Counted from the first letter of the stretch, positions 36,511 through 62,827 are shown. The stretch: DNA of 64,000 bases from an uncultured Methanosarcinaceae archaeon (GCA_963833425.1 CAWHXP010000005.1:1-64000); one strand, 5' to 3'. Program-made: numbers and translations. The notes: generated by a model from the sequence alone, not told the origin.

Positions 36511-37009
36511 GATTATGTCTAATGGGTATTGTTATATCACTTCTGTCTTTCAGAGCCATTTTGAAAATTGTTGAAGTTATGCATTGAGTGTTGAATTTTT
36601 TTAAGCTATTTTCTATTCAATGGATACCGACAGTTCAATTTCGTTCTTGGCCTTCAGCTGCAGTACCCAACTACTTAACTTTGCCAGTTGAGTAAAAATA
36701 AGTACTTTTGTTTGTGCTATTCGGTCCGTTGAAAACTACCATAAATATTATGCTGTTTACATCTATAATTTGCCATTACTTTGAAATTAATTAATAGTTC
36801 TTTCGTAAAATAATAAATATTTCATTCTTTCTTTAACTCTGCAAGATGTCACAGCATTTAAACTGTATATTATTGGAGTCAAATTGATTTAATTCAGATG
36901 GTAAATTAACAAATTCAAGCCAGATAAATTATGTTCTCATTTATTAGATTTCTTTAATCGACAAATTTCGATAAAAGTTTGGAAGTATCGTTCTTATATA
37001 TTAGGACTC

Positions 37010-43042: not shown

Positions 43043-43508
43043 TAGAGATTTTCGATAACCTCCATGCTCTTGAGCATGGTTTGCTTTAAATTTGTCAATA
43101 TTTATGTATATTCATGAAAACTCTTACTGATTTTGCTCTTAAATAAGAGTATAAACGTCTTGAATCTGTTGGAGATAAGCTTGCTGAAATTGCTTCCTTA
43201 ATTGATTGGAAAGCGTTTCGTATTATTCTTGAGTCTATGTATATCAACAAAACCGTTTCAAGAGGGAGACCTGAAACTGGTGTCATTGTGATGTTCAAAA
43301 TGCTTGTTTTACAACAATGGCATGGGCTCTCTGATTTTGAACTTGAGAAACATTGTATAGATCGAATTTCTTTTAGGAAATTCCTTGGATTTCCTGAATA
43401 CATATCTGGCAGTACTATTGTATGGCTATTTAGGGAGAGAATTATCGAGCATTTCAAAGAAAATATAGGGAAAGTTGCAAAGCCAACTTGGTGCTCTGGG
43501 TTTACAGA
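43043..43508 (+). mobile_element. IS5-family 5' fragment
   Basis: Near-perfect inverted copy of 38866-39331, beginning TAGAGATTTTCGATAACC. Confidence 0.92.
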
Positions 43509-43860
43509 TTTTCGATCATAATCTTTACTGGGTCAAGTGATGAAAAAGTTGGGAGTGATGCTGTAAAGAAAGGTGCTCAGGACTATTTAGTCAAAGGACA
43601 AATAGATAGTAGATTATTGAAACGTTCTATCCAATATTCTATTGAGACAAAAAAAAGTAAGAAGTACTAGCAAAATCAGATCGCTCTTAAAACGGAAATT
43701 CATTACAGGATTAAGAACAATTTACAAGTAATATTTCCACTTATCGACTTTCAAGCTGATAAATTCAAAGGCCGAAAGGGTATAACGGATTCAGAAGTCA
43801 TTGATGCTTTCAAGGAAAGTCAGCATAGAGTAATATCTATGCCCTTATCCATGAAGAATG
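43509..43860 (+). pseudogene. Receiver domain / HisKA_2 histidine kinase fragment
   Basis: [25 protein letters not shown] then EIHYRIKNNLQVI and ESQHRVISM.LIHEE. Confidence 0.75.
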
Positions 43861-44167
43861 CTCCAATTTCAGAGAAGGCTGCGACGCTTTCCACATGCTT
43901 TTACTGGTATTGTCTCTCTTCAAATATACAAAAAAAATCATAATAAATATATAGAAGAAAAACTATTATCTATTTTACCACTATATACAATGTGTATTTG
44001 AATTTACTATATATTTTATATTAATGCTCAAGTTCTTATATTTTTTGTGCACCTATCATTAATTATCTCATATAGTCGAATAAATAAATTAACTAGTTTA
44101 TAGAAGGAATAGTTTCCTTATTTGGTTCACAGTATACCAAATAATGTACACAATTGGGGTTGATTAA

Positions 44168-44551
44168 GTGCGTATGGATGACGATGCAATCAAAGCAATT
44201 TTTGACTACATTACAACTAATGGTGAAGTACCAGGAGTACTAACGTATACAAGTGTTGATGAGTGGTTAAAATATGGCGGCATAACATTTCGTGAGATTG
44301 ACAAGGAACCATATTGGTCAAAAGCCTGCACAGACGGATCTATTATTTTTCATACAGACAGAGGAAATAGACAAACATACATAAAAGTGTGGACTGAAAA
44401 AGCCGGTAAACTTATAGGTTTCGAATTGAATCACAACATTGGGGGCGTTTTAATGATGGATGTAGAACATCAAAAAAATATATCTAATAACATCAGGGAT
44501 AAACAAGACACGCAAATGAGACAAGCAGAAAGTAATAAAAATAATAAATGA
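44168..44551 (+). CDS. Hypothetical protein
   Basis: 127-aa ORF with a plausible ribosome-binding site. No recognised motif. Confidence 0.5.
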   Translation: MRMDDDAIKAIFDYITTNGEVPGVLTYTSVDEWLKYGGITFREIDKEPYWSKACTDGSIIFHTDRGNRQTYIKVWTEKAGKLIGFELNHNIGGVLMMDVEHQKNISNNIRDKQDTQMRQAESNKNNK

Positions 44552-44624
44552 TCTAAAACAACTTAAGTCATCATTTTTAATAATGTGACATTTTATGTGT
44601 AAATTTATGTTTGTCCCAAAATCA

Positions 44625-44866
44625 GGCAATGTACGGAAAATTTTATAAAATCTAATTGTCTTTGTATTCTGTTATTGTCACTGCAAAAAAGCAGGATGTT
44701 GAGCTAATAGTTATGCTAACAAAGTTATGTTTCTATTGTTTCATTGATGCATAGGTTTTATGACAAAAAAAACTGTGCATCAATAAAAACTACAAATCTT
44801 ATTTTGATGTGGTTAAGACAAAGGACACAAAGTCGATAGAAATTTACAAAACTTTTGTACACTGCC
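44625..44866. mobile_element. ~240-bp MITE-like element
   Basis: Imperfect terminal inverted repeats GGCAATGTACGGAAAATTTT / AAAACTTTTGTACACTGCC and an internal gatgcatag...ctgtgcatc hairpin. Related sequence at ~7690-7895. Confidence 0.6.
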
Positions 44867-45113
44867 ACAGAGTAGAATAGGTGATCTCAAAACTCAGATC
44901 CAAGCATTTAATGATCAACTACAAGTCAAGGATGAATAGTTACATAGTAAAGATGAACAAATCAAGGATCAAAGGATGAGAATATGCATAAACAGGCAGC
45001 CAACATTCAAAATTTAATCAAAGATAATCGCAGTCGAACACAAAATTACTGCCTGAATAAACTGAAAAAAGAGTCATTGGTGGCGATTTTAGTAACTTCG
45101 ACTATACTTATAC

Positions 45114-45584
45114 CTAGAGAGCCGATACATCTTTACTACAAACGATAGGGATAAATTCTTGTTTAGGTGGATATTTTATAGCTAGAGCCTTTATTATACC
45201 CAATATCAACAATAACGTCGAGAGACCTAAAATAAATTGGAAATCATATCTTTGAGCATATAGCCCAGCTGCAATTTCACGCAGGACTATTAAAATAGTA
45301 GCATCGGTTACATATGTAATTCTTATTTCTTCATGCTCGCGAAAATCAACAAAGATCTTGAAAAGGTCTATAAGAACGAAAATCGTTAGGATGCCAGCTA
45401 CTATCTGACCAAAACCGCCACCTAGAGTACCCAATAAAATTGATTTGATATTTAGCAGGATATTTATAACCCCCACAAGTAGCGCCAGTATCAGTATATA
45501 AAGGATAATAATAGTAATTGAATCAATAATAGTTTTAAATATTTTATAATGATTTGTCCTAAATGCGTTATACTTAGTTATCAC
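45114..45584 (-). CDS. Phosphate-starvation-inducible PsiE-family membrane protein
   Basis: Four hydrophobic segments, ILTIFVLIDLFK and VTDATILIVLREI. Confidence 0.8.
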   Translation of the reverse strand: MITKYNAFRTNHYKIFKTIIDSITIIILYILILALLVGVINILLNIKSILLGTLGGGFGQIVAGILTIFVLIDLFKIFVDFREHEEIRITYVTDATILIVLREIAAGLYAQRYDFQFILGLSTLLLILGIIKALAIKYPPKQEFIPIVCSKDVSAL

Positions 45585-47061
45585 TTAATTCCCCTCCATA
45601 AAATAGACTAGCTTTTCTCAAATCTCAAATATGTATAATTTTAATCAATGTGTATAAAAATTAATAATTTTTTATATATATTATTTTTTTTGTCCAAATC
45701 AATAGAAGAAGGCTGTAACAAAATATGTAAGTTTTGTCACTAAATTTGAGTGAGAATCGGAAACGATGAGAAAAGTAAGAGTTATCAAAAGAAAAAAAGT
45801 AATGAATGTTTTATTTAAATAGCCTTGGATGCAGAATCTGTTTTTATGACCGTTTTAGCTGTTTTTTCTGCATTAACGTCATATACTTTATATAAAAATT
45901 TCTAATCTTACTTTTCCATAATATATAGCTACTTGGATTTGATGATATTTAATGCATGTTGTTTGTAGTAATTGCCTATACAATATAGATTGGTTGCAAC
46001 ATATAAGTACTAATGCATTTTTTAATTTTTTATAAATGTCTATTGTCACAATATAACTCCTTATACTTCATTTTATTTAATACAGGTTTGTCTATAGTAA
46101 TCGTCTGCTCTATACTTGTTAATTGCAACTTATAAGTACTAATGTATTTTTTAATTTTTGTATAAAGTATTGATACCAAATTCAAAAATAAGATCCGAAC
46201 TATTTGGAAGTTTTAATTATATATATTAAAGGTCTATGAAGTCTACGATATTTAATTAATCTACAAAAACTATATATTCATTTTAAGTATACCATTTCTG
46301 TTTATCAGTAAAGAAAAAAAATTCTTTCGAAATCTATTTACTGCATTCAAAAATTAAGTTTTTGACATCCTTTTTTTCATATTTTTAGTTTTGTTCAGTG
46401 GACTGTATAATTATTTTTCCCATAAAGTCCCTATTTATGATTGTACTTTGGTTTAATTCTTTTCAAGTGTCCCGAATGTTCCACGAGCTCCAGATGCTCA
46501 ATGAATCCCATAAGCTCCATTAGTAATAGATCAGAAATGTTTTCTTATTCTGGATGGAATTTAGGAAATTCAGAGATTTTAGCATAAAACATGTACATTA
46601 ATTGAGTTTAAGTCAATACATCCTTAGCTGTCCTGGTGAATTACAGTTGATTGGTTTCTTTGGGGCCTGTTTAAGATCCAAGAAGAACTCAAGCTGGGAA
46701 TAAGAATAACGCTTTACTTGTGAATAAAATTAAAATTTGTCCAAAAAAACAATATAAATTTTGTATATGTAATACTTGACAATCTGGATTTATAAGAACA
46801 TTCTAGGACTTACGCAGTTGAACAAAAAAATATAGAATTTAAGATTTAACTGTCTAAAAGCAAAGTTTAAGCTACAAAGATATAAAGCAGCCTAAGCGCT
46901 ACATCATCACTTATTCACTGTTAAGTCCATCCACCGATTATAATTTTATGTGGGCTTTATAATCCCAAACTATAAATAGACACAATTTTAAAAACTAAAT
47001 CCTGAAGAACAGAAGATCTCTTCCTAGTATAGTAATGTTTATTTTAGTTCAAAGCTGATAA

Positions 47062-49395: not shown

Positions 49396-49885
49396 TTATG
49401 CTCCATTAACGGTGAAAGCTGCCCAATAGTAAGGATGCTCAAAAGGCTTATCTTCTGGAGATTCTTTGGCCATTTCAACGTAGTGTTTTCTGTACTGTTC
49501 TATTTTCTTCTTGCTTTCGTCTTCCCATTCTCTCGAGCAGTGACATTTTTCTACATGATCAGCTACTTGATTAACAGTAAGGTCTTTAATATAGAGTTGG
49601 GTTTTCTACAAAGCCGTTGGAATATCCGTTTCCTTAGCAATATGATTAGAGTAGAACCGTTCCATTAGTATAGCTGTCGAAATATCTGGGACAGACCATA
49701 GACTGCTTACCACGCATGGAATACCCGCAAGCATAAAACCTGCAGGTAATCCAACGAACTCATCGGCACTACCTTTAACAATATCGGTGATACCTGTCTC
49801 ACAGGCAGAAAGTGTTACCAATCTTGCTGAAGAAATGTCCACAACGTCATTTTGGAGATCTGCCAAACTCAGTGTTCTTCTCCCA
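49396..49885 (-). pseudogene. CHAT (caspase-like) protease C-terminal fragment
   Basis: LVTLSACETG, GLPAGFMLAG, VVSSLWSVPD, LMERFY, then an in-frame TAG (49606-49608), then PFEHPYYWAAFTVNGA*. Confidence 0.9.
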
Positions 49886-50070
49886 AACAAGTACAATCAA
49901 AAGTATGTGGATTGTCCTAGTTATGTCTGCAATGGCGGGAGAAATGGAGATATTAGTGTAAGCCAGATAAGGGAACTAATCAGCTCATAAACCTCCTAAC
50001 TTAGTTATATCAGAAGAAAGTGATTTATATCGTTGGATTAAGAAATATAAGGCTCTTTGGTGAGCTCATT

Positions 50071-53000
50071 TTAGTCTGATTTCTCAAATGAAAAAAAATG
50101 CATTTTACCAAGAGAATCACCTGCAACAATAGACTCACCATTCGGTGAAATGCAGCAGGCTAGAAACGGACTATCCCCTGTAAAATTAGAGATGATTATC
50201 CCTTGTTCCAGATCCCATACCTTGAGTGTTTTATCGCTGGAAGCTGAAATTGCATACCTTCCATCACGTGTGATTGCAACCGCATTCACCCAATTATCAT
50301 GTCCCTTTAGTGTTGTTTTTTCTTCTCCCCTTTCCAAATTCCATATCTTGAGTGTTTTATCATCGGAAGCTGAAACTGCATACCTTCCATCACACGTGAT
50401 TGCAACTGCATTCACCCGATAATCGTGTCCCTTTAGTGTTGTTTTTTTCTCTTCTCTGTTCCGATCCCATATCTTGAGTGTTTTATCGTCGGAAGCTAAA
50501 ACTGCATATCTTCCATCATGCGTGATTGCAACTGCATTCATCTTAGAAGAATATCCCTTTAGTGTTGCTTTTTCTTCTCCCCTTTCCAGATTCCATACCT
50601 TGAGTGTTCTATCGTAGGAAACTGAAACTGCATACTTTCCATCAGGTGTGATTGCAACTCCACGCACCCGACCATCATGTCCCCTTAGCGTTGTTTTTTC
50701 CTCTCCCTTTTCCAGATCCCATACCTTGAGTGTTTTATCTCCGGAAGCTGAAATCGCATACTTTCCATCACGTGTGATTGCAACTGCATTCACCCAATCA
50801 TCATGTCCCTTTAGTGTTGTTTTTTCCTCTCCCCTTTCCAGATTCCATACCTTGAGTGTTTTATCGCTGGAAGCTGAAACTGCATACTTTCCGTCAGGTG
50901 TGATTGCAACTGCATTCACCCGATAATCATGTCCCTTTAGTGTTATTTTTTCCTCTTCCTTTTCCAGATCCCATACCTTGAGTGTTTTATCGCCGGAAGC
51001 TGAAACTGCACACCTTCCATCACGTGTGATTGCAACTGCATTCACCCGATAATCATGTCCCTTTAGTGTTGTTTTTTCCTTTCCCCTTTCCAAATTCCAT
51101 ACCTTGAGTGTTTTATCTCCGGAAGCTGAAATCGCATACTTTCCATCACGTGTGATTGCAACTGCATTCACCCAATCATCATGTCCCTTTAGTGTTGTTT
51201 TTTCCTCTCCCTTTTCCAGATCCCATACCTTGAGTGTTTTATCTCCGGAAGCTGAAATCGCATACTTTCCATCACGTGTGATTGCAACTGCATTCACCCA
51301 ATCATCATGTCCCTTTAGTGTTGTTTTTTCCTCTCCCTTTTCCAGATCCCATACCTTGAGTGTTTTATCTCCGGAAGCTGAAATCGCATACTTTCCATCA
51401 CGTGTGATTGCAACTGCATTCACCCAATCATCATGTCCCTTTAGTGTTGTTTTTTCCTCTCCCCTTTCCAGATTCCATACCTTGAGTGTTTTATCGCTGG
51501 AAGCTGAAATCGCATACTTTCCATCACGTGTGATTGCAACTGCATTCACCCAATCATCATGTCCCTTTAGTGTTGTTTTTTCCTCTCCCTTTTCCAGATC
51601 CCATACCTTGAGTGTTTTATCATCGGAAGCTGAAATCGCATACTTTCCATCACGTGTGATTGCAACTGCATTCACCCAATCATCATGTCCCTTTAGTGTT
51701 GTTTTTTCCTCTCCCATTTGCAAATTCCATATCTTGAGTGTTTTATCGCTGGAAGCTGAAATCGCATACTTTCCATCACGTGTGATTGCAACTGCATTCA
51801 CCCAATCATCATGTCCGTCAAGAGTTCTAATCAACGATCCTCCTGGTGATTTCAAGGAACAAGTTCTTGGAAGTAATCTGATACCATCTTGACATTCACA
51901 TGCTTGACCTAGTAATGTTTGTATCCCCTCTTCGTGAAAACTAAGGAGACGTCCTAGAAGTTGTCCTGCAAGCTGAGTTTCATTTTTTATTAAAGCATTA
52001 TATGAAAGTTTAATTGCACTTTGTACAAGCCTTATTTCAGTATCATCGAGTAGGTAATCGTAATCATGGATAAGAGAATTTATGTTAGGTATTTTGATAC
52101 CCGTTTTGTCATTTCTAACGGTCACATGCTCCAATTTGGTGTGCATCCATTCAAAGTTTAAAAGAAGCATATGAAGTTCTTCTTTTCTTCCAGCTTCTTT
52201 CATGTGGTATGCAAGATGCTCGAAGAAGTACCCATCATTAGGGCCCGTACTCCACTTATTTTTACAATCTTTAGGATATGCTTCTAGCAACTGATTGTGA
52301 AGGCTTGTTAAATCACGTGTTGTAGCTCTCAGGTAATCAAGTTGCAGGTCATGAAGAGATATAAAGCGATGAGGTGCTTCACCATCTAGTCGCAGAAGAG
52401 ACATCTCTTTCAATTTAGATATCAATTTCCCAGAATTGCGCTTTTTTAAATTTCCAGTATGTGCCCAAAAAATCGCAATTGTAGCTTCAGGTACAGGTTC
52501 ATCTGTAGGAAAAATCGCCAGTTCCTGATAACGCTTTACTGCATCTGAATCTTCACTTGAAAGAAAGTCGAGACTGACTTTAAATGCTTTCATCACATTG
52601 GAATTTGGATAGTTTGGCAATTGAGCTTCAATAAATTCAAGATCAGCTTCTTGTAAAGCCTCCAAAATATCTAACCATGATATTCCACTTTTAGCCATCG
52701 CTCCACACATGGATAGAGCGAGTGGCAGGTATCCACATTCCCTTGCCACTCCTTTTGCTTCCGATGGCAATAAGTTTACATCCTTATCATACCAATTTGC
52801 TAGAAGCTTCAAAGCTTCAAGTTCGCTGAATGTTTTAATCTTGTGTTCCTGAGCTCCAAGTGAGGTAACAACATTATTGTTTCTTGTGGTAATAAGCAGT
52901 TTACACATTTTACCTAAAGCATTAACAAAAGGCACTGCATCTTGAACTTTCCAAACGTCGTCAAGTATAATGAGGCATGTTTTATTAGAAAGTACCTTTG

Positions 53001-53973
53001 AAAGACTCGCTTCAGCTTCCTTTTGGCTGCTGTAATTTGCAGGATCATCGCCAAATTCTCTACCGACTAACTTCAAGCCCCCTATAAGATCAGGATTCTC
53101 TAAACCTACAGTAACCCAGAATATCCCATCATGAAAAGCGTCGCGAGCTTCTCTACTTTGGGCAAGGGCTGTGGATAATACGGATTTTCCCATTCCTCCC
53201 ATACCTTGAAGTGAGTTTATCTGCTTTGCAGATGTGATTGCTGCAGATTTTGTGAAATCAGCCAGCATCAACTCTTTTATTTTCTTAAGATCTTCTGTTC
53301 GAGATAAATAATGAGGAGGTAGTGTAGGTACTCCAACAATTGGAGCAAGATGCTCAGATAGAAACTCAAAAATACTGAGGTCAAATGAATGCTCTTTGCA
53401 AACATTTAATATCGAATCAATAGGACTAAAGCCACCTGACAATATGCCTGTAGCTGTCTCCTTATAAACAACTATTCCTACGATATCGTTTAGTTTAGCG
53501 TCGAAAACCGGAGTACCGCTAAATCCTCCTTCAATATTATACCCGATAAACTTAGAAACGTCAATCTGAACGAAGTCAGGATAAGCCCTCCCTCTCCCTA
53601 ATACTGAGACCCACTCTGCTTTATCTCCATATGGAAAACCGCATACTTTGAGTTCTCGATCCCAGAAATCATCTGTGAGCATAAGCTTTCCTATACTGGC
53701 ACATGAAGGAGCTTCATCTTCAAGCTTAAGAATAGCAAAGCCATATTCTGTGTTTTGCGACCAAAAGAAAATGTGAGATTTTAGAACTTTATTTGGCTCA
53801 TCAAGATAAAAAGTCAGATATATCTCATCGCCTATTTTAGCATTTGGCGAAACATCATTGACTACGTGCCTGCAAGTAAGTATCCACCTTTTCCCAATTA
53901 GAAATCCAGCACCTTGTGCGTCCCTGTTCTTATCTAGAACTTTGACTATTGAGGACTCTGGTAAATGATTCAT
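50071..53973 (-). CDS. Apaf-1-like NLR: trypsin-like protease, NB-ARC, helical domain, 14 WD40 repeats
   Basis: GAGFLIG..WILTCRHVV and GGFSGTPV (trypsin). GMGGMGKS, LIILDDVW, LLITTRN, CGYLPLAL and LHDLQLDYL (NB-ARC with MHD-like motif). Thirteen near-identical WD repeats plus one divergent. Confidence 0.95.
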   Translation of the reverse strand: MNHLPESSIVKVLDKNRDAQGAGFLIGKRWILTCRHVVNDVSPNAKIGDEIYLTFYLDEPNKVLKSHIFFWSQNTEYGFAILKLEDEAPSCASIGKLMLTDDFWDRELKVCGFPYGDKAEWVSVLGRGRAYPDFVQIDVSKFIGYNIEGGFSGTPVFDAKLNDIVGIVVYKETATGILSGGFSPIDSILNVCKEHSFDLSIFEFLSEHLAPIVGVPTLPPHYLSRTEDLKKIKELMLADFTKSAAITSAKQINSLQGMGGMGKSVLSTALAQSREARDAFHDGIFWVTVGLENPDLIGGLKLVGREFGDDPANYSSQKEAEASLSKVLSNKTCLIILDDVWKVQDAVPFVNALGKMCKLLITTRNNNVVTSLGAQEHKIKTFSELEALKLLANWYDKDVNLLPSEAKGVARECGYLPLALSMCGAMAKSGISWLDILEALQEADLEFIEAQLPNYPNSNVMKAFKVSLDFLSSEDSDAVKRYQELAIFPTDEPVPEATIAIFWAHTGNLKKRNSGKLISKLKEMSLLRLDGEAPHRFISLHDLQLDYLRATTRDLTSLHNQLLEAYPKDCKNKWSTGPNDGYFFEHLAYHMKEAGRKEELHMLLLNFEWMHTKLEHVTVRNDKTGIKIPNINSLIHDYDYLLDDTEIRLVQSAIKLSYNALIKNETQLAGQLLGRLLSFHEEGIQTLLGQACECQDGIRLLPRTCSLKSPGGSLIRTLDGHDDWVNAVAITRDGKYAISASSDKTLKIWNLQMGEEKTTLKGHDDWVNAVAITRDGKYAISASDDKTLKVWDLEKGEEKTTLKGHDDWVNAVAITRDGKYAISASSDKTLKVWNLERGEEKTTLKGHDDWVNAVAITRDGKYAISASGDKTLKVWDLEKGEEKTTLKGHDDWVNAVAITRDGKYAISASGDKTLKVWDLEKGEEKTTLKGHDDWVNAVAITRDGKYAISASGDKTLKVWNLERGKEKTTLKGHDYRVNAVAITRDGRCAVSASGDKTLKVWDLEKEEEKITLKGHDYRVNAVAITPDGKYAVSASSDKTLKVWNLERGEEKTTLKGHDDWVNAVAITRDGKYAISASGDKTLKVWDLEKGEEKTTLRGHDGRVRGVAITPDGKYAVSVSYDRTLKVWNLERGEEKATLKGYSSKMNAVAITHDGRYAVLASDDKTLKIWDRNREEKKTTLKGHDYRVNAVAITCDGRYAVSASDDKTLKIWNLERGEEKTTLKGHDNWVNAVAITRDGRYAISASSDKTLKVWDLEQGIIISNFTGDSPFLACCISPNGESIVAGDSLGKMHFFSFEKSD
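50205..51835 (-). repeat. 126-bp highly conserved tandem repeats encoding WD40 blades
   Basis: Thirteen units, several identical at nucleotide level (e.g. 51104-51480). Confidence 0.95.
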
Positions 53974-53982
53974 TCAAAAGCC

Positions 53983-54309
53983 TCATGCCGTTTTCCAAGA
54001 AAGAGTGACCTTAAAATTTGCCTCAACGCTTGTAGTTGCAATAAAGGCTCCAGCTTGCGCATTCATTATGATCCCAAACTCAACCCCTATACAATCAGGC
54101 TTACTGCTTAGACTCTTTAGTCTCTGTACAATAACGTCTGCAGCAGGCCTGATGACATCCAGAGCTTTTTCAAATTCTTTTGTTGCTTCTTCAGGCACTC
54201 CTGACGGTCTAGAAACAGGAGTCCGACCTCTTTCGGATTCTGTTTCCTCTACTTCAATTAAAACAGCTCCACCCTCTTCAAGGTTATATTTCACAAGTTT
54301 CTTAGTCAC
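53983..54309 (-). CDS. Trypsin-co-occurring domain protein Trypco1 (CU044_2847-like)
   Basis: GGAVLIEV...FEKALDVIRPAA...PD.I.VEFGI...A.AGAFIA....EANFKVTLSW. Lies 9 bp upstream of the trypsin-NLR gene. Confidence 0.88.
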   Translation of the reverse strand: MTKKLVKYNLEEGGAVLIEVEETESERGRTPVSRPSGVPEEATKEFEKALDVIRPAADVIVQRLKSLSSKPDCIGVEFGIIMNAQAGAFIATTSVEANFKVTLSWKTA

Positions 54310-55773
54310 TATGCTTTCCTCCTACAAAAAATTAGTAATGAAGATTCGATTCATATCGTCCACAATGTAAGTAATTTGCATATTGTTACTTTTAAATAAG
54401 TCACTTATTTTTGTTTTTTAGCCTATTTATAATAATTTCTTGAAATAAACTATTTTTTAAGAGTTAGGGTCTCTAAACATTTAAATTGCAGAAAATTTCA
54501 GATGAAGATTTGTGATAAAAAGGGCCTGTTAAAGATTTGGAGGACAAAGATTGGAAGAGGGGTAAAAACTGGAATTTAGAGTAAAAGACTTAAAAGCTCA
54601 GCATTCGGCGGCTCAGGTGACTCTAGCTCCTAACTGATATTATATCAGTTGGAACAGGCATAACTAAGAAACTTCAAACGGGGGAGGTAGAAAAATGAAT
54701 TGACATCTCGCCCATAACTTTAGTTTAGGAATTATGTGCTTGAAGTTTAAAATTAAAATTATTATATGGTGCAATTGACAAATTTTATTCAGACCGTTCA
54801 AGTTTTAATTCTATTGATTTCAGTTCAACCATTTAAGTCATAATTAAAAAATAGCAGGGAAAGATAAAATATATTGGCACCCCGCGCAATGAGAACTTGA
54901 AAATATAACAAACATGCATAGTAATTGATGATACAAATGCGGAATCTTATCAATCAAAAAGCTATAGAATCACCAGGAGCAAAGGAGCCTGGTTAATGTT
55001 TTGAACTTTTTCTATGCGTGCATCACCAAGATTTCATTAAGTTATTTATTAATCATGCGTACACAATCTCCTTTTTAGCTCAAATTTAATTGAATGGATC
55101 ACTATTTAATAGGTAATTATGTTCATTTAAGTTTGATATAACAAACAGTAACTAACGGAGTTATTGGGTATTTATTTGAAGCTTTTTCGCTAATTACAGT
55201 CTTTTTATGCGAATTAATCAATTTAATTCGACATTATTCAGCATTTTAATGAATAAATTGAATTAATTTTTGGGATTTATTTCCACTTTAATCTAAAATT
55301 GTTATTTATTTGATCATTATTTATGCCGAAATTATAGAGTTACAAGAGACTATTTAAGCTTCAAATCCTAAAAAAAACAAGTTTAATAGTAAGAATTATA
55401 GCTTAATTGTAGTAAGGAAAGGTAAATATTTATTGCGTAAGTTATTTACACCCAGTTTACCCATCACTAATTATCCACAGAGTAAAATTCTTTTGTGAGT
55501 TCGCCGTTTGATGTCCTATAATCATAGAGATATGGTCCGTAAGTTCTAATTGATTTTGTATTTCAAGATCATAATCAAGAGCACACTGCTTTAGGTATAG
55601 TTGCTCTAAAGTGTAATAATGATGCACAATATAGCCAATCTTCCCATATCAATTTTATGAAATTTTCAAACTTTAATATTTGTATCGGACATAGGGTTAT
55701 TTATCAATTTACAGAAAATGACACAAAAAGATTAAACACCTACTCATTAACTAAACTATAAAGAATCTTTTAA

Positions 55774-56142
55774 TTAAATAAATGATTCAGTGTGGCTATC
55801 TCTAATTCTAATCTTTTCTAAAATTTTCATTCTAATCTTTTCTGCTTCATTTTCAGTTATACATGGGATATTCTGCTCCACTACTCGAGATTGCCCTTCT
55901 GCAGATAAATACAGGAACTCTCGAGCATGTGAGCTTAAACTTCTCTGATCTTCAATAACAAGCCTATAAACTGGCCGACTGGTATATTGCACCTTAGGAT
56001 TAAAAAAATATTCAAAATGTGCGTGTAGATCCCCTTCCCGGTAAAGAGAGAACAGATTTTTGCAATCCCAAGGTAACTCCTTGCCTATTTTTTGCCTTGC
56101 TTCAAGAGCTTGTAATCTTTTTTTCATTGATACTGTTACCAT
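55774..56142 (-). CDS. Hypothetical protein (mobile-element-like)
   Basis: 122-aa ORF starting MKKRLQALEARQ, GTGAAG ribosome-binding site, co-oriented with neighbours. Confidence 0.55.
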   Translation of the reverse strand: MVTVSMKKRLQALEARQKIGKELPWDCKNLFSLYREGDLHAHFEYFFNPKVQYTSRPVYRLVIEDQRSLSSHAREFLYLSAEGQSRVVEQNIPCITENEAEKIRMKILEKIRIRDSHTESFI

Positions 56143-56299
56143 ATCTTCACTTCACATTTTCAATATTGTATTTTTCCCTAATCTGGCTATAATTCCATTA
56201 TACTTACCAGAATATTAATGGAATCTTGGCATAAATGGTAATTAAACTTCCATATTATACAGCATACGACTCTCCGATCGAGCTTCCAGAATAATAATT

Positions 56300-56611
56300 T
56301 CATTCTACTCTTGTAAATAACGGAGTGTCCGAAAGAGCATAACCATTCTGTGCCTGATAATTTTCCAGAGCTTCAAGTCTCTTCTGAAAATCACCAATAT
56401 CCAAATCTTTCATTATCGCATTTTGGACCTGTAAAGCCTGAATGAAAACTCTGATATAGGCCAGCTTTAAGCTATCTCCTTCCTGAACTCTGAAACGTTT
56501 TGCCTTCAATCTCTTTTGAAGCTGTTCAATTAATTCTGAATTTGCACTTAACAGTGACTCTCGTGTTAGTAATTTAAGAGTAGCTATTGGGGTACTAACA
56601 GTGTTCTTCAT
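56300..56611 (-). CDS. Hypothetical helical protein (mobile-element-like)
   Basis: 103-aa ORF ending in coiled-coil DFQKRLEALE. Confidence 0.6.
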   Translation of the reverse strand: MKNTVSTPIATLKLLTRESLLSANSELIEQLQKRLKAKRFRVQEGDSLKLAYIRVFIQALQVQNAIMKDLDIGDFQKRLEALENYQAQNGYALSDTPLFTRVE

Positions 56612-57354
56612 TAAATCCCTTTATAACGTTTTGTCGGTTAATTGTCAAGAATTTATAGTAATATATTGTATTTATAAATATATACATTTTAGTGCATGTA
56701 TCGTAAATAAATGTTATACTACTGTTTCATCTTCTAATCACATCTTTGATCTTCTGAATATACATTAATATGTAGACCTAAATTATAAAAACAAATTCTT
56801 ATAATTAGTCTAAAGTATAATTTTTAATGAGTTAATGATAAACTATTACTTATGCGATTTAAACTTCACCACTGGCTTCTAATGCATTCTTATGACACTT
56901 AATCATTTACAATCCCCCTTAGACACAAATTATGAAGTTTTGTAAAATTTCCCCAAAAATTATTATAGAAAATCCACTTATCATGCAATTTACCGGTTAG
57001 CTTACTATTTACGAAAATTATAAACTGAAACAGATAAGTAAGCTCTTGAATCTAAAAAGATCACTACTAAACTATTTATTAGTCCAAATTTTAATAATCC
57101 TAATGAAATCGCTTATACTTGAGTTTGTACTCTAAGTGAGTAAGTCATATTAAAGAAAAGTCAGTCTACACTTGCTGATATAGAAGATTGGGACTTGATA
57201 AGAGATTCGATCGGGCTAAAAGGAGTTACTTATAAAAATTGGTTTAAATATCTAATTACAGTTTCACACATTCTTCCGGTCAAATAGCAATAAATGCAAC
57301 CTAACACTTCGTCCCCCTGCAACAGTAATAGTATTATTTGGGGAACTCTCTTGC

Positions 57355-57696
57355 TTAGGAGTGCATTTTTAAGGTGGGGTATCCTTCATAACAGTTATTG
57401 CATAACACAGTCACAGTAGGACTTTTACCCTTTTGTCGGATCGTTTTTATCATTCCACATTTTTCTAACTCGTTCAATGCTGTCGGAAAAGCCCAATCAG
57501 GGATAGGTAAAAGGGAATTTATACCTTTCAAGGTGACTACTAAATTTGTAGATTTTTTAATACCTTTTAAGTGCCAAATGTACATAGCCACCCTATAAGT
57601 ATGCCCAACTGAATTTGAAGGTAGCTTCACAATCCATTCTAAAGGCAATTGGGGTATGAAGTATCCTTTTATTTTATCTCTAGAATTTACTAACAT
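57355..57696 (-). CDS. Small winged-helix DNA-binding protein, putative replication or regulatory protein
   Basis: LPLEWI...VAMYIWHL.GIKKS...ALNELEKCGMIKTIRQKGKSPTVTV, a wHTH recognition helix plus wing. Confidence 0.6.
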   Translation of the reverse strand: MLVNSRDKIKGYFIPQLPLEWIVKLPSNSVGHTYRVAMYIWHLKGIKKSTNLVVTLKGINSLLPIPDWAFPTALNELEKCGMIKTIRQKGKSPTVTVLCNNCYEGYPTLKMHS

Positions 57697-57795
57697 GATT
57701 TTACCCCATCTAATATTATTTCTAAATGATAAGAGTAAATAAATAAGAAATATAAAGAAATATAAGTAGTAAAAACATTATCCGAAGGCTTTAGA

Positions 57796-57881
57796 ATTTA
57801 GCTGTGTAGCTAATTAATTTTAGCTGTAGAGCGAAATATATTTTGCTGTGCAGCTAATTAATATTGCTCTGTAGCTAAATT
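57796..57881. repeat. Four phased palindromic repeats (iteron/operator-like)
   Basis: GCT-N4-AGC cores at 57801, 57823, 57845 and 57866 (spacing 22, 22, 21 bp), consensus TT(A/T)GCT-N4-AGCTAA. Confidence 0.8.
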
Positions 57882-59542
57882 CAAAGTGTAGACAAAACAG
57901 ATTATTGGAACTATTCTGCTTTCAGCTTCCTTCTTCTTTAATTTCTCCTAAAATCTCCATAATCAAATGCCACTTTTCTGCACCCTTCTCATCTATATAC
58001 CTATCAGGATAAAGATCGTATTAAAAATACCTTTGATAATTACATGAACAAGTTCAAACCTTATTTATCAAAAACCATTTGAAGCATCTAGAGCAAAAAA
58101 GCCCTGGTGGGGATTTTGGTGATGATAGCTACCTTAAGACGCTGAATATATCAATAGTGGATTTTTATTCTATTAAAATTTGATTGAGTTTAGAAAGTCA
58201 AGATTAACGAATTAATGACTCATTAGATTCTCGATTCACAGCAAACTTCGTTAGAATTTGTTGTCTTATTTCATTTATTTCTGCCATAAAGTCTTACAGA
58301 CTGAAGCCAGATATACTCAGGACTGTCTAATACCTTCAGGCAAAATATATTGCAAATCCAGGTTTATGAAACCGATCTCTGAACTCACAAATGAAATGTA
58401 CCTGGATTATGTAGGCTCATGATAATTAATAAAATGACATTTTTCCGCTTCAGGAAAGCTCTGGCTCAAATATGAACGAGTATAGGGCGATTCGAGGCAT
58501 TTTCTTGAGAAGTTAATTAAAACTATTAACTAGATGGAAAAAAACCCCATGATAGGGCTTAAAATAAGCCAGTTTTTGTCAATCCGTTAGCAAAACATGG
58601 GACAAAGTCAGCAATTTAGTCCAAACTAATCAAAAAGTAAATGAAATCTCATGTTGATTTAGAGAATCTGGAGAAGCCTGTTAGTCAACCATCACCTATT
58701 TGCTCTCGTAAACCCTAAGTAAGTCCAAGATATAGCTAATAATAATTTTTATTACTTTATTAATATAATAGGATATTGAACGCATTTAGTTTAAATTGTA
58801 TTAGATATACTTCTTTATCTGAAATAAAGATGATCCATTTATATAAAAACTAAACTATAACTCCAGATTAAAAAGTGGTTATTACAGATTTTTCATCCCT
58901 GTGACTACTAATCAGGTCCAAAATTAACATTTTATGCAACTATATTTCAAAAATTAAGATCAAACATAATCAAGGACCGTTATTTTCGGTTCGGTCAATG
59001 GGATGCGGTGACAAAAAACAAATTAGTTCATTACTTCCAGTTTTGGATAATAAGCCTAATAACAAAAATAAGTGGAGCGGAAGGATCAAAAACTTTATTT
59101 GCTCAATGTTGTGACAATACTTCTCATTGAATTTAGCTATTATCATAGACATCCCAATACCTTGCAGTAGACTTCGTACCTTTAAATCATAAATTTTAAT
59201 AAATGGTAGTAAAGTCTTCCTTATAAAAAATAAATATAATTTATAAAAATCAGATAAAATAAATATTGAATTTGTTCTATTGCCTGAAAATAAGGCAATC
59301 ACATAGTCAATAAAATATATTTTAAAGTTGTAAAATAAATTTTTGACTTTCTAAAATTTAGTATCTATTCAGATAAATTTATGTATTTACTTGATTATGT
59401 ACTCAAAATTCCAAAATGGAAATCTTTATTTTATTAGCTAGGGATATCTCATTTATCTTTTATCTCAAAATTTTGATCTTAGAGCTAAAATGGTGAACTG
59501 TTGTGATAAAACCCAACTTTTGTACCAGAAAGCCGGAGAAGT

Positions 59543-59900
59543 TTATTTATTCGAATTTTTTAATTCTTCAAGATTTCTCTCACAAAAATCAATTCGTCTA
59601 AGATCTTCAATTTTTCTATCCATTTTTATTGCCTGTTCATAATACTCAATTGCTTTTATTGTCTCTCCCAAATCTCTATACGCGTTTCCCAGATTACCAA
59701 GGTGAATTCCTTCTGCGTCCCTATTTCCAATTTCTTTAGCAATTTTGAGTGCTTGTTCATAATACCCAATTTCTTTTTTCGTCTCTCTCAGAGCACTGTA
59801 TGCATTCCCTAGATTTCAAAGTTGATTTCCTTCATTAAGTCTATCACCTATTTATCTTGCAATTTTTAGTGACTGTTCAAGATAATTTATTGCTTTCCTC
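59543..59900 (-). pseudogene. C-terminal TPR fragment of an NLR-type gene
   Basis: YYEQALKIAKEIGNRDAEGIHLGNLGNAYRDLGETIKAIEYYEQA...IDFCERNLEELKNSNK*. Confidence 0.8.
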
Positions 59901-60678
59901 CCTACTTATGCTGCTCGGAGTGTTTCTCATCTTTATGTTCTTCACCGGATTTTTTGCTGTCGTTTTGTTGCTCATCTGAGTGTTTCTTCTTAGGAGCCGT
60001 GTAAATACATCCAATTCCCAGAACAACGCGTCCAATCGCCAGTAATATTAAGATTATATAGTTTGGAAACTTTGTCTTCATATTATGCACCTATTTTTAT
60101 ATTTTATAATGCATTATTAATTTATAGATAATTGACTTATTGACTTATTATCTATAATGATTATAGCAAAATGCAAATATTATATAAATACTGCCTATAT
60201 ATACTATATATATTTATATATGAATAAAGTGTTTAGCAAAGGAAAAAATATAAATCCAATAACTCCAAAGATAATTTTACGCATGTAAATAATAAAATAA
60301 GATCTTTTTAATATAAGACTTATGAAGGCTCAACTGCAAAATCTCCTTTAAGTATTTATCGCGTAAATAATGAATAAAAAAGTTGGGAATGATTTTTTTC
60401 TTATTTGTAAGTGGAAAAAATCTGTCTCAGGATGAACTTTAAGAAAAAAATGTGCCAACCTATAGCTAAAAGCAGAATACAAGTTGATTGTCTCTTGATG
60501 ACGTCTGATGTCCTCACGGTTCTAATTTTGTCTTTTGATGCAATTGTAACCAGTGGTGAACAAAAACCCATTAATAATCAAAGTTTAGCTTCGGTAGTAA
60601 AAAGATGGGGGATGGAAGTAATGATCTTACTTAAGACTAACCTTTTCCTTTTTGTTCAGTCTAAGTTGTAATATGATC

Positions 60679-60826
60679 GGTTTTGTTGCAAAAATAATAT
60701 CTCTGCAGTTTACTCATTAATTTTTACCTTTATGTACTATTTTTCTCGGTTATGAGACTAATTAATTTTCAAATTGTGATAAACATATTGATTTTGTAAC
60801 AAAGCCAAATTTTTTGCACCAAAAAT
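60679..60826. mobile_element. Degenerate copy of the 149-bp MITE
   Basis: GGTTTTGTTGCAAAAATAAT start and AAAGCCAAATTTTTTGCACC end, similar length to 14141-14289. Confidence 0.6.
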
Positions 60827-60833
60827 CAGCAAG

Positions 60834-61070
60834 TTTATTTTTTCTAAATTTTTAATTTCTCAAGATTTCTCTCGCAAAAATCAATTAGTCGGGAATCTTC
60901 AATTTCTTTAGCAATTTTGAGTGCCAGTTTATAATATCCAATTGCTTTCTTTGTCCTTCCAAGATCATTGTATATTATTCCCAGATTTCCAAGGCATTTC
61001 CCTTCTCCTTTCTTACCCCCAATTTCTTTAGCAATTTTGAGTGACTGTTCATAATACTCAATTGCTTTTA
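60834..61070 (-). pseudogene. Second C-terminal TPR fragment, paralogous to 59543-59900
   Basis: KAIEYYEQSLKIAKEIGGKKGEGKCLGNLGIIYNDLGRTKKAIGYYKLALKIAKEIED...IDFCERNLEKLKNLEKNK. Confidence 0.8.
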
Positions 61071-61104
61071 TAAGATAGCATCATTATTTTGTAGGAGATA
61101 AACT

Positions 61105-61410
61105 ATGGAGAAAATTGGATTGGTAGAGACGATAGAAGCCTTGCGGTCAGAGTTATCTGCGGCGGTAAAGAAAGCCCAAGGACAAGAGATTCAGTTTCCG
61201 ATAGGTTCAGTACAACTGGAGTTCCAGGTAGGAGTGACATGGGACGCAGAGACTAAGGGTAAAGTCAAGTTCTGGGTATTGGAGTTAGGAGCGAGCGGCA
61301 AATATGCAAACGAATCGGTCCAGAAGGTCACTCTTAATCTTGAAGCCCCAGTGAACACTGAGGGAAATATAGTGAAAGTGACAGAACATTCGCGACAGAG
61401 ACCGAGTTAG
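61105..61410 (+). CDS. Trypsin-co-occurring domain protein Trypco2
   Basis: IGLVETIEALRSEL..A...IQF.IGSVQLEFQV...GKVKFWVLELGASG....VQKVTLNL. Directly upstream of a trypsin gene. Confidence 0.9.
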   Translation: MEKIGLVETIEALRSELSAAVKKAQGQEIQFPIGSVQLEFQVGVTWDAETKGKVKFWVLELGASGKYANESVQKVTLNLEAPVNTEGNIVKVTEHSRQRPS

Positions 61411-61422
61411 GGAGGGTAGATA

Positions 61423-62823: not shown

Positions 62824-62827
62824 CTCA

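What the first reader, a model, noticed from the sequence alone, without database searches (positions are those of the whole stretch)
50071..54309. Apaf-1-like receptor in an archaeon with a trypsin domain in place of CARD, plus Trypco1 partner
Seen: a 1300-aa intact ORF with trypsin, NB-ARC, an Apaf-1-like helical linker (YFFEHLAYHM...LLLNFEWMHTKL) and 14 WD40 blades, preceded by Trypco1. The protease keeps its His (TCRH) and Ser (GFSG), but the usual catalytic Asp position reads YGFAIL instead of xDFAIL. It may therefore be attenuated, use the nearby Glu, or carry a sequencing error. Inference: an apoptosome-like sensor-protease, with Trypco1 as substrate, inhibitor or cofactor.
Basis: partly seen in the sequence, partly recalled or inferred. 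Interest (0 to 1): 0.75.

Follow-up and report, generated by a model that had tools for sequence, protein, structure and literature searches.

The report
Archaeal Apaf-1-like protease sensor, disarmed
A methane-producing archaeon carries a two-gene, suicide-type immune module whose sensor is built like the human apoptosis protein Apaf-1 but fused to a protease; this kind of system is already described in bacteria, and this copy has lost one of the protease's three catalytic residues.

Summary
An intact 1300-aa ORF (50071..53973, minus strand) encodes a trypsin-like peptidase, an NB-ARC, an Apaf-1-type winged helix and helical domain 2, and 13 regular plus 1 degenerate WD40 blades. Nine bases upstream lies a 108-aa Trypco1 gene (53983..54309).

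The genome is archaeal and methanogenic (SSU rRNA, McrA), probably Methanosarcina.

The catalytic Asp really is Gly (G78, codon GGC). Asp is kept in 19 of 19 homologues, in 4 of 4 same-genus relatives, and in 39 of 39 Trypco1-linked trypsins from other genomes and metagenomes.

The kind of system is known:
- Trypco/"Pepco" plus protease-STAND modules (Kaur et al. 2020).
- A Nov 2025 preprint showing that a trypsin-Avs4 cleaves a Pepco pore protein.
- A Jan 2026 preprint describing bacterial Apaf-1 orthologues with a protease in place of CARD.

New points here:
- An archaeal trypsin version sits on a chassis whose closest relatives carry TIR.
- The Asp loss is unique to this copy, so the protease is probably crippled.
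- Trypco1 is not detectably homologous to the characterised Trypco2-type Pepco and lacks its cleavable C-terminal tail.
- Three of the WD repeats are identical at DNA level.

Structure prediction of the sensor and co-folding were not available.

Verdict: new member of a known kind, modest interest.

The parts
53983..54309 (-). Trypco1 gene (108 aa, GTG start; GGAGG at 54322..54318). Predicted protomer: N-terminal beta-hairpin, disordered charged/Pro loop (aa 23-37), long helix (38-65), long amphipathic beta-hairpin (73-104). Only 3 residues follow the invariant Trp105.
50071..53973 (-). Trypsin-NB-ARC-WHD-HD2-WD40 STAND gene, 1300 aa, intact, 9 nt after the Trypco1 stop codon
53359..53973 (-). 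Trypsin-like (S1/PA clan) peptidase domain, aa 1-205: His36 (TCRH) and Ser152 (GFSG) present
53740..53742 (-). Codon 78, GGC = Gly, at the position of the catalytic Asp (a single A-to-G change from GAC)
   Evidence: same letters in a contig of run X2
52570..53223 (-). NB-ARC (NBD + HD1), aa 251-468. Walker A GMGGMGKS, Walker B LIILDDVW and sensor TTR all align with the same motifs of Apaf-1.
52330..52533 (-). Apaf-1-like winged-helix domain, aa 481-548, with LHD (His541) aligned to the LHD of Apaf-1
   Evidence: below Pfam cut-off; inside the Apaf-1 alignment; H541 and D542 invariant
52114..52311 (-). Apaf-1 helical domain 2 (APAF1_C), aa 555-620
50197..51834 (-). 13 tandem 42-aa WD40 repeats (aa 714-1259). 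Pairwise nucleotide identity is 71-100%, three repeats are identical, and the longest exact repeat is 241 nt. Variation is concentrated at repeat columns 10, 11, 19, 29, 37 and 40.
50074..50196 (-). Degenerate 14th blade (aa 1260-1300), matching the TEP-1 C-terminal propeller profile

Best explanation
This is a two-gene conflict (immune or programmed-death) module of a methanogenic archaeon, probably Methanosarcina. It belongs to the known class 'small Trypco/Pepco effector + protease-armed STAND sensor'.

Proposed working, with each step marked:
1. The 14-blade WD40 part senses a foreign, most likely viral, protein (inferred).
2. Binding releases the Apaf-1-type NOD, which exchanges nucleotide and forms a ring (inferred from family membership; the motifs are shown to be intact).
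3. The N-terminal trypsin domains, which sit where Apaf-1 has CARD, are brought together and switched on (inferred).
4. They cut the co-transcribed Trypco1 protein, which then damages the membrane and kills or arrests the cell (by analogy with SsPepco).

In this genome step 4 is probably crippled, because the catalytic Asp is Gly. The module is most likely a recently disarmed allele.

It arose by module shuffling. A Trypco1+trypsin cassette sits on an NB-ARC-WD40 chassis whose nearest relatives carry TIR.
For: Domain calls.

Apaf-1 likeness. The window's NOD matches Apaf-1 residues 151-517 at E 6e-27, with Walker A, Walker B, TTR and LHD aligned. The family profile matches Apaf-1 residues 118-1235 in one stretch at E 2.5e-166.

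Operon. The genes are 9 nt apart on the same strand, with Shine-Dalgarno-like motifs.

Trypco1-peptidase linkage. 19 of 35 genome loci have a peptidase directly downstream. 39 of the 91 loci with room have a trypsin-family ORF there.

Full-size equivalents elsewhere. P0048, P0071, P0092 and P0107 are 35-40% identical over 78-98% of the first 700 aa. Locus L046, a Phycisphaerae MAG, has Trypco1 followed by trypsin-NB-ARC-WHD-APAF1_C-WD40.

Mechanism precedent. SsAvs4's trypsin domain cleaves SsPepco, a beta-barrel oligomer. Toxicity is lost on S151A or on deleting Pepco (preprint 10.1101/2025.11.14.688446, section 8 read). Kaur et al. 2020 named Trypco1 and Trypco2 as neighbours of trypsin peptidases (PMC7159879, passages).

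The Trypco1 model shows a long amphipathic hairpin plus a helix.

Asp loss is unique to this copy:
- D in 19 of 19 homologues.
- D in 4 of 4 same-genus relatives.
- D in 39 of 39 Trypco1-linked trypsins that cover the column.
- The window agrees with 18 of 21 columns that are at least 85% conserved in the domain. Of the three misses, F157 is shared with P0011 and A119, by my eye, with the closest relative L036, so only G78 is unique to the window.

Shuffling. The NOD nests in a 22-row set of 20 TIR-bearing and 2 trypsin-bearing proteins, SH-aLRT 98. The closest trypsin domain (63% identical) is fused to ARM repeats in another genome of the genus.
Against: - No structure of the sensor and no co-fold could be made, so ring assembly, protease activation and Trypco1 binding are all inferred.
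- Trypco1 is not detectably homologous to Trypco2 (hhalign probability 0.4%). By eye, the characterised SsPepco resembles the window's Trypco2 rather than its Trypco1.
- Trypco1 proteins have almost no C-terminal tail: median 2 residues and maximum 9 in 37 trypsin-linked cases. SsPepco is activated by removal of a 20-residue tail, so the cleavage site, and even the effector role, are not shown for Trypco1.
- With Gly at the Asp position, the proposed chemistry cannot run at a normal rate.
- The PADLOC models match only the protease part, so defence is inferred from context and literature.
- The trigger is unknown.
- The surroundings are decayed, with CHAT, TPR, transposase and kinase fragments. 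The module may be on its way to loss.
Confidence: 0.6

Rival explanations
1. The module is fully working. The protease acts with a Ser-His dyad, or Glu76 takes the place of the missing Asp, so Gly78 is a tolerated variant.
For: His36, Ser152 and the GFSGTPV oxyanion region are intact, and the 1300-aa frame and Trypco1 are undamaged. Glu76 lies two residues before position 78.
Against: Asp is invariant in all 62 other family members examined (19 + 4 + 39). That argues the family needs it. Glu at -2 is also present in the closest relatives, which still keep Asp (SEPD in P0011, KEPD in L036), so it is not a compensating change. From general knowledge of serine proteases (recalled, not tested here), replacing the triad Asp lowers the rate by orders of magnitude.
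Confidence: 0.17
2. Gly78 is a sequencing or assembly error and the real gene has Asp.
For: It is a single-base difference (GGC against GAC). The genome is a draft of 21 contigs, 80% complete.
Against: A 170-nt contig of run X2 (depth 4.3) covers 53579..53748 with no difference. However, the codon lies 6-8 nt from that contig's end, and the run may be the source sample or from the same study, so this is weak independent support.
Confidence: 0.06
3. Trypco1 is not the death effector. It is an inhibitor, chaperone or adaptor of the protease, and the real target is some other host or viral protein.
For: There is no detectable homology between Trypco1 and Trypco2. Trypco1 has no C-terminal tail of the kind cut in SsPepco. 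The Trypco1 fold search found nothing. In the same genus, Trypco1-family genes also sit beside SIR2-like or Lon-like genes, so the partner is not always a trypsin.
Against: The gene has the same place, size and strand as Pepco in characterised modules, and the preprint treats Trypco1 and Trypco2 as one 'Pepco' class. The long amphipathic beta-hairpin plus helix fits a barrel-forming protomer. Co-occurrence with three unrelated peptidase families (trypsin, CHAT, papain) fits a common substrate better than a specific inhibitor.
Confidence: 0.15
4. The module serves self/non-self recognition or developmental cell death in aggregate-forming Methanosarcina, as fungal NWD/HET NLRs do, rather than antiviral defence.
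For: The WD repeats are near-identical, with variation focused on a few columns: 293 non-synonymous against 11 synonymous pair differences at six columns. From memory, this resembles fungal NLR WD repeats. NLR-like proteins are reported as abundant in Methanosarcina and are tied to multicellular habit (Dyrka et al. preprint 10.1101/2020.01.06.895854, passages; Kaur et al.).
Against: Experimentally tested relatives of the class respond to phage proteins. The mechanism downstream of sensing would be the same, so this rival changes only the trigger. The pair counts among repeats are not independent events.
Confidence: 0.12

Closest known systems
Pepco-protease-Avs modules (SsPepco + trypsin-Avs4 of Streptomyces subrutilus; preprint 10.1101/2025.11.14.688446; abstract, passages and section 8 read, Table S1 searched)
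   Same: A small gene lies immediately upstream of a STAND protein with an N-terminal trypsin-like domain, on the same strand. The proposed logic is sensor, then oligomerisation, then protease, then cleavage of the small protein, then membrane damage.
   Different: The sensor chassis is an Apaf-1-type NB-ARC with WD40 repeats, not Avs4. The host is an archaeon; 'archaea' and 'Methanosarcina' have 0 occurrences in the preprint's main text, and 'Methanosarcina' has 0 in its two readable supplements. The small protein is Trypco1, which is not detectably homologous to Trypco2 and lacks the C-terminal tail. The protease here lacks its Asp.
[quoted passage not shown]
   Same: Apaf-1-like NOD plus WD40 propellers, with a protease fused where CARD would be.
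   Different: There the protease is caspase-like and the hosts are bacteria, closest in cyanobacteria. Here it is trypsin-like, comes with a Trypco1 partner, and is in an archaeon.
Apaf-1 (apoptosome; PDB 3SFZ, 1Z6T)
   Same: Collinear NBD-HD1-WHD-HD2 followed by WD40 repeats. Walker A, Walker B, TTR and LHD align.
   Different: No CARD. There are 14 blades, against 15 in Apaf-1 (blade number of Apaf-1 recalled). The protease is fused rather than recruited. The ligand is unknown. Identity is low (97 bits over 364 residues).
Trypco1/Trypco2-trypsin pairings of NTP-dependent conflict systems (Kaur, Burroughs, Iyer, Aravind, eLife 2020, PMC7159879, passages read)
   Same: This paper defined Trypco1 as a neighbour of trypsin-like peptidases in conflict systems of multicellular prokaryotes. 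It mentions Methanosarcina mazei among the few archaeal occurrences and notes that inactive trypsin domains exist in some contexts.
   Different: That paper describes the pairing mainly in vWA-MoxR (VMAP) ternary systems. No vWA or MoxR gene was seen beside this pair.
TIR-NB-ARC-WD40 proteins of Methanosarcina (for example P0005, P0014 and P0018, named by NCBI as Methanosarcina sp., M. mazei and M. barkeri)
   Same: 65-74% identity from residue 208 onward, with the same linker, NOD and WD40 repeats.
   Different: Their N-terminus is TIR, not trypsin. Whether a small gene precedes them was not looked at.
Fungal NWD/HET-E type NLRs with highly identical WD repeats (recalled, not read here)
   Same: Tandem 42-aa WD repeats that are nearly identical at DNA level, with variation at a few positions.
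   Different: As recalled, the fungal proteins use NACHT and other N-terminal domains. Whether the same repeat positions vary was not checked against a paper.

Membership tests
AP-ATPase / NB-ARC STAND (Apaf-1-like NOD) | P-loop NTPase with Walker A, Walker B and the sensor Arg (TTR) | tested here: met
   GMGGMGKS, LIILDDVW and LITTRN align with the same motifs of Apaf-1. NB-ARC matches at E 4e-25.
AP-ATPase / NB-ARC STAND (Apaf-1-like NOD) | Winged-helix domain with the conserved His (LHD/MHD) | tested here: met
   LHDLQLDYL aligns with LHDLQVDFL of Apaf-1. H541 and D542 are invariant in 29 sequences. The Pfam WHD hit alone is below the cut-off.
AP-ATPase / NB-ARC STAND (Apaf-1-like NOD) | Helical domain 2 after the WHD (Apaf-1/Dark type) | tested here: met
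   APAF1_C at E 8e-13. The alignment runs to Apaf-1 residue 517.
Apaf-1 proper (apoptosome scaffold) | N-terminal CARD that recruits a caspase | tested here: not met
   Residues 1-205 are a trypsin-like domain. The family profile matches Apaf-1 only from residue 118 on.
Apaf-1 proper (apoptosome scaffold) | C-terminal WD40 propellers collinear with the NOD | tested here: met
   14 blades. The family profile aligns in one stretch to Apaf-1 residues 118-1235.
Apaf-1 proper (apoptosome scaffold) | Ligand- and nucleotide-driven assembly into a ring | not testable with these tools
S1/PA-clan trypsin-like serine peptidase | His-Asp-Ser catalytic triad | tested here: not met
   His36 and Ser152 are present, and Gly78 replaces Asp. 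Asp is present in 62 of 62 other members examined.
S1/PA-clan trypsin-like serine peptidase | Sequence match to the family profile | tested here: met
   Trypsin_2 scores 34.9 bits against a cut-off of 27.6, and Trypsin 21.9 against 20.6. There are weak matches to SplB and glutamyl endopeptidases in the PDB.
Pepco/Trypco + protease effector module | Small Trypco gene adjacent to a peptidase gene on the same strand | tested here: met
   The gap is 9 nt. Linkage is seen in 19 of 35 loci and in 39 of 91 loci.
Pepco/Trypco + protease effector module | Homology of the small protein to the experimentally characterised Pepco | tested here: inconclusive
   Trypco1 against Trypco2 profiles gives probability 0.4%. 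SsPepco itself was compared by eye only, and it resembles the window's Trypco2. One Atlas cluster carries both Trypco1 (89% of members) and Pepco PF24393 (11%) labels.
Pepco/Trypco + protease effector module | Cleavable C-terminal tail after a conserved Ile | tested here: not met
   Three residues follow Trp105 here. Tails have a median of 2 and a maximum of 9 residues in 37 trypsin-linked Trypco1 proteins.
Pepco/Trypco + protease effector module | Stable beta-barrel oligomer that is toxic after cleavage | not testable with these tools
The monomer model has pLDDT 65.7 and shows a long hairpin plus a helix.
Avs / known defence systems in PADLOC 2.0 | Match of the sensor to a system model | tested here: not met
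   Only the protease part matches, and to LmuA, RT-Protease_XI, PDC-M35A, HamA and, weakly, Avs1b. The WD40 part matches HEAT-ARM_XIII.

The most novel reading that the evidence does not exclude
Trypco1 is a protease-licensed effector family of independent origin from Trypco2/Pepco. It would be activated by a cut in its internal disordered loop (aa 23-37), which would release the N-terminal hairpin, rather than by removal of a C-terminal tail. On this reading the Gly78 allele is not mere decay. It would be a selected, naturally disarmed or slow-firing version of an archaeal apoptosome-like death machine, kept because its rapidly varying WD40 sensor would otherwise cause autoimmunity.
Probability: 0.12. 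Interest if true: 0.6.

Novelty: new member of a known kind. Interest (0 to 1): 0.35.

Why it matters
It places a complete Apaf-1-type sensor (NOD with helical domain 2 and a double-propeller-sized WD40 array), armed directly with a protease and a small partner protein, in a methanogenic archaeon. This extends to archaea a design so far described and tested in bacteria.

It offers three testable points:
- Whether Trypco1 works like the characterised Pepco, despite no detectable homology and no tail.
- A natural Asp-to-Gly allele that can be compared with an Asp version to ask how much the triad Asp matters in these immune proteases.
- A clear case of effector swapping (TIR against Trypco1+trypsin) on one chassis within one genus.

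None of this overturns current views.

Tried and rejected
- **Structure prediction of residues 1-710 (alignment A3).** There is therefore no superposition on Apaf-1 or on a trypsin triad, and no Glu76-His36 distance.
- **Co-folding of the protease domain with Trypco1.** The job was never queued (queue full from then on) and the tool was declared unavailable. Binding is untested.
- **Sequencing runs.** No RNA holder is listed. Three DNA runs of one study hold 6-7% of the sampled words, and six short contigs are all 100% identical. No part without cover is used as evidence.
- **Metagenome scan with the window's protease domain.** 60 pattern matches, none a relative.
- **Viral contigs with the Trypco1 alignment.** One marginal 17-residue match.
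- **Foldseek of the Trypco1 model against the PDB.** Nothing at E <= 0.001. Low-probability matches to hairpins of pore-forming toxins were not used, because the model's pLDDT is 65.7.
- **Pfam at E up to 10 for Trypco1.** No second family.
- **Cluster look-up of 10 homologues.** No organism names.
- **Sigma-70 promoter and terminator scan.** Not meaningful for an archaeon, and fewer sites than in shuffles.
- **Earlier notes of this scan.** None for this genome.
- **Formal alignment of SsPepco with the window's Trypco proteins.** Left out, because that sequence came from a paper's table and not from a stored record.
- **Rejected reading: a paralogue family in this genome.** The 710-aa query finds only itself. 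NB-ARC matches number 4, two of them in the window.

Full report
**What is there**

On the minus strand, an ATG-started ORF of 1300 aa runs 53973..50071. Nine bases upstream, a GTG-started ORF of 108 aa runs 54309..53983. A GGAGG lies eight bases before the GTG, and a GAGG lies before the ATG of the large gene. The two read as one operon; no RNA data exist to show it.

The small protein is Trypco1 (PF19493, E 1e-25; NCBIfam CU044_2847).

In the whole-protein Pfam scan WD40 hits fill the table. Scanned alone, residues 1-710 give four domains:
- Trypsin_2 at 21-167.
- NB-ARC at 251-468, E 4e-25.
- An Apaf-1-like winged helix at 481-548, below the Pfam cut-off.
- APAF1_C, helical domain 2, at 555-620, E 8e-13.

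From residue 714 there are 13 regular 42-residue WD40 repeats, then a degenerate last blade, 14 in all.

**Organism**

The window is part of a 4.07-Mb draft of 21 contigs, 80% complete. The draft holds a full-length match to the archaeal SSU rRNA model (1554.9 bits) and an McrA match. The closest named relatives of the NOD are Methanosarcina proteins. Methanosarcina acetivorans is the only one of 14 control genomes with a Trypco1 match. 'Methanosarcina' is therefore an inference; 'methanogenic archaeon' is shown.

**Apaf-1 likeness**

By plain sequence search of the PDB, residues 254-617 align with Apaf-1 residues 151-517 (E 6e-27). Walker A, Walker B, the TTR sensor and the LHD histidine all fall in register.

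A profile of the window's N-terminal part with 28 full-length homologues matches full-length Apaf-1 in a single stretch. Profile positions 218-1272 align to Apaf-1 residues 118-1235 (E 2.5e-166). The same profile matches the WD-less Apaf-1 fragment at E 5e-84. The family is thus collinear with Apaf-1 except for CARD, whose place is taken by the N-terminal effector domain.

**The missing Asp**

Codon 78 is GGC.
- In a MAFFT alignment with 19 protease-bearing homologues, His is kept in 20 of 20 and Ser in 20 of 20. Asp is kept in 19 of 19 homologues, and only the window has Gly.
- Four same-genus relatives keep Asp (EPDIAIL, EEDVAFL, TADFAVL, KEDLSVI).
- I fetched 108 Trypco1 loci (35 from species genomes, 73 from metagenomes). 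Of these, 91 have at least 500 nt downstream, and 39 of those have a same-strand trypsin-family ORF right after Trypco1. In those ORFs His is 39 of 39, Asp 39 of 39 and Ser 37 of 37 among the pieces that cover each column.
- Of 21 columns at least 85% conserved among the 19 homologues, the window agrees at 18. The three misses are G78, A119 and F157. F157 is shared with P0011, and by my eye A119 is shared with the closest relative L036. That leaves only Gly78 unique to the window.
- A 170-nt contig from another run of a metagenome study covers the codon with no difference. The codon is near that contig's end, and the run may not be independent of the assembly.

I read Gly78 as a real, recent, single-base loss of the triad Asp in an otherwise intact domain. 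How far it lowers activity is not measured. General knowledge of serine proteases (recalled) says by orders of magnitude.

**Is Trypco1 linked, and to what?**

In 35 Trypco1 loci from named species genomes, the gene directly downstream is as follows:

| Downstream gene | Loci |
|---|---|
| Trypsin_2 protein | 11 |
| CHAT (caspase-like) protein | 7 |
| Papain-like peptidase | 1 |
| GntR regulator | 4 |
| PLD-like | 1 |
| FtsX/MacB | 1 |
| ORF without a Pfam hit | 8 |
| No downstream ORF | 2 |

My family HMM adds two of the 'no hit' ORFs to the trypsins. The sensors fused to these trypsins vary: NB-ARC-TPR, NACHT or none. One Phycisphaerae MAG (L046) has the window's domain order as far as its first WD40 repeat, within a 795-aa frame. 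Metagenome proteins P0048, P0071, P0092 and P0107 are full-size equivalents.

Within the window's own family, Trypco1-family matches occur in 31 of 150 other genomes. All are in two of 16 genera: 26 of 34 in the window's genus and 5 of 6 in a second genus. The partners in the 29 loci fetched are:
- A Lon-like protease, next to a partial Trypco1-like domain: 15.
- A SIR2-like protein: 7.
- A trypsin fragment plus SIR2: 1.
- Trypsin-ARM: 1.
- Trypsin-NACHT: 1.
- Metallophosphoesterase nearby: 2.
- No call: 2.

Only 3 of 150 other genomes hold any relative of the window's protease domain. Only 8 of 40 genomes of the genus hold a relative of its NOD, one of them a pseudogene with four stops. The module is a patchy accessory element.

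**Module shuffling**

Homology to the closest relatives (65-74% identity, TIR-bearing, several named Methanosarcina) begins at residue 208, right after the protease.

In an IQ-TREE 'quick' tree of 67 NOD regions, the window sits in a 22-row set (SH-aLRT 98) of 20 TIR-bearing proteins and 2 trypsin-bearing ones (itself and P0011). It is sister (support 84) to 16 TIR-bearing rows. The trypsin label needs at least 4 changes even counting only well-supported branches. A 236-row FastTree agrees. The rows were all proteins in hand with a near-complete NOD match. The 67 were the 22-row set, all 25 trypsin-bearing rows and every ninth of the rest.

The nearest protease domain (63% identical, with its own Trypco1) is fused to ARM-type repeats in another genome of the genus. 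So a Trypco1+trypsin cassette and an NB-ARC-WD40 chassis have been joined here.

**WD40 array**

Pairwise nucleotide identity among the 13 repeats is 71-100%. Three repeats are identical, and the longest exact repeat is 241 nt, so the repeat number in a short-read assembly is uncertain. Differences are mostly non-synonymous (678 against 202 pair differences). They pile up at columns 10, 11, 19, 29, 37 and 40 (293 against 11). Columns 37 and 40 alternate, as if a two-repeat unit had been copied.

From memory of WD40 structure surveys, the residue before the conserved Asp (column 29) and those just after GH (columns 10-11) face the top, ligand-binding side. I did not check this against a paper. 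The pair counts are not independent events. I treat this as a description that fits a fast-changing sensor.

**What is known**

- Kaur et al. (eLife 2020, PMC7159879, passages read) named Trypco1 and Trypco2 as mutually exclusive neighbours of trypsin-like peptidases in NTP-dependent conflict systems. They noted rare archaeal cases such as Methanosarcina mazei.
- Dyrka et al. (preprint 10.1101/2020.01.06.895854, passages) report that NLR-like architectures are abundant in Methanosarcina.
- A preprint of November 2025 (10.1101/2025.11.14.688446; abstract, passages and section 8 read) lumps Trypco1 and Trypco2 as 'Pepco'. It shows that Streptomyces SsPepco forms 9-10-mer beta-barrels, that the trypsin domain of the adjacent Avs4 cuts it after Ile97 and removes a 2-kDa tail, and that toxicity needs the catalytic Ser.

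A search for 'Trypco1' finds 5 papers. 'Pepco' with 'protease' and 'defense' finds only the 2025 preprint. 'Methanosarcina' with 'NB-ARC' and 'WD40' finds only Dyrka et al.. I found no description of this archaeal trypsin version. The large PDF supplement of the 2025 preprint could not be read, and it may list such cases.

**Where this one departs from the characterised case**

SsPepco, seen in Table S1 of the preprint, starts with the helix and has a 20-residue tail. By eye it resembles the window's second small protein, a Trypco2 at 61105..61410, not Trypco1.

Profile-profile comparison of 33 Trypco1 with 29 Trypco2 sequences gives no signal (probability 0.4%; 1.6% with the single sequence).

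Trypco1 has an extra N-terminal hairpin and a disordered, charged, Pro-containing loop (aa 23-37) before the helix and the long amphipathic hairpin (model pLDDT 65.7). Its C-terminus ends 0-9 residues after the last strand in 37 trypsin-linked members.

Transfer of the pore mechanism to Trypco1 therefore rests on gene context, size and predicted shape. The cut site, if there is one, must lie elsewhere. The loop is my guess.

**Surroundings**

Seven kilobases away on the other strand lies a second system. It consists of Trypco2, a trypsin-TIR protein with an intact triad, and a TIR-STAND protein that runs off the window. Right after the WD40 gene is a 96-aa CHAT fragment. Further on are TPR fragments, two DUF772 and one DDE transposase fragment, and histidine-kinase fragments. 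The genome also holds a second, broken Trypco1 with trypsin and WD40 fragments next to a SIR2-like gene. This is a decaying island of conflict genes.

**Verdict**

This is a new archaeal member of protease-armed, Apaf-1-like STAND modules with a Trypco partner, and it probably carries a disabled protease. The steps from sensing to killing are inferred.

Noticed in passing
window 61105..64000 (+): A second protease-effector system lies 7 kb from the first. It consists of Trypco2 (61105..61410, PF19631, E 1.5e-26), a 466-aa Trypsin_2+TIR_2 protein (61423..62823) with His, Asp (NADLAVL) and Ser intact, and a TIR_2 + NB-ARC/STAND protein (62828 onward) that runs off the window; one search gives it a 1359-aa frame in the genome.
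   Followed up: partly
window 49606..49896 (-): A 96-aa ORF matches only positions 175-252 of the CHAT (caspase-like) profile (E 1e-21). It looks like a remnant of a caspase-like gene right downstream of the WD40 gene.
   Followed up: partly
G000 contig C3:169410-172616 (locus L002): A second, broken copy lies elsewhere in the same genome. It has a Trypco1 with an in-frame TAA on one strand and, on the other strand, fragments of a trypsin domain (which keeps Asp), a WD40 repeat and a SIR2-like gene. Divergent Trypco1/trypsin orientation also occurs intact in two other genomes of the genus (L037, L154).
   Followed up: partly
loci L017, L019-L023, L025-L033 (same genus): In 15 of the 29 Trypco1-family loci fetched from the archaeal family (all 15 in the window's genus), a partial Trypco1-like domain (profile positions about 24-98) sits inside a 130-200-aa ORF. 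Directly after it comes a ~315-aa protein with a Lon-type (S16) protease domain. This pairing is not mentioned in the passages I read.
   Followed up: no
window 22742..25828 (-): A 1028-aa protein with 12 TPR_12 repeats and weak NB-ARC/AAA_16 matches at its N-terminus (E 1.5e-3). It may be a further STAND-TPR sensor in the same window.
   Followed up: partly
window 33800..47000 and 54400..61100: Coding density is low here and gene fragments are common: DUF772 transposase pieces (38715..39173, 43147..43518), a DDE transposase piece, histidine-kinase pieces (HATPase_c, PAS, HisKA_2, receiver), and TPR pieces (59546..59815, 60847..61080). Several 100-140-aa ORFs at 55.7-59.4 kb match no Pfam or PADLOC family.
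   Followed up: partly
alignment A4 (Trypco2 family): Trypco2 proteins share a conserved C-terminal G-x-P-[IV]-[KR]-[VI] motif followed by about 8 residues ending in K-P. By eye this lines up with the reported cleavage site of SsPepco (..PARI|RR..).
   Followed up: no
window 18311..20587 (-): A 758-aa DEAD/DEAH helicase with a C-terminal DUF5814 gives strong PADLOC matches to BrxH- and HamB-type helicases (E 3e-33). No partner genes were examined.
   Followed up: no
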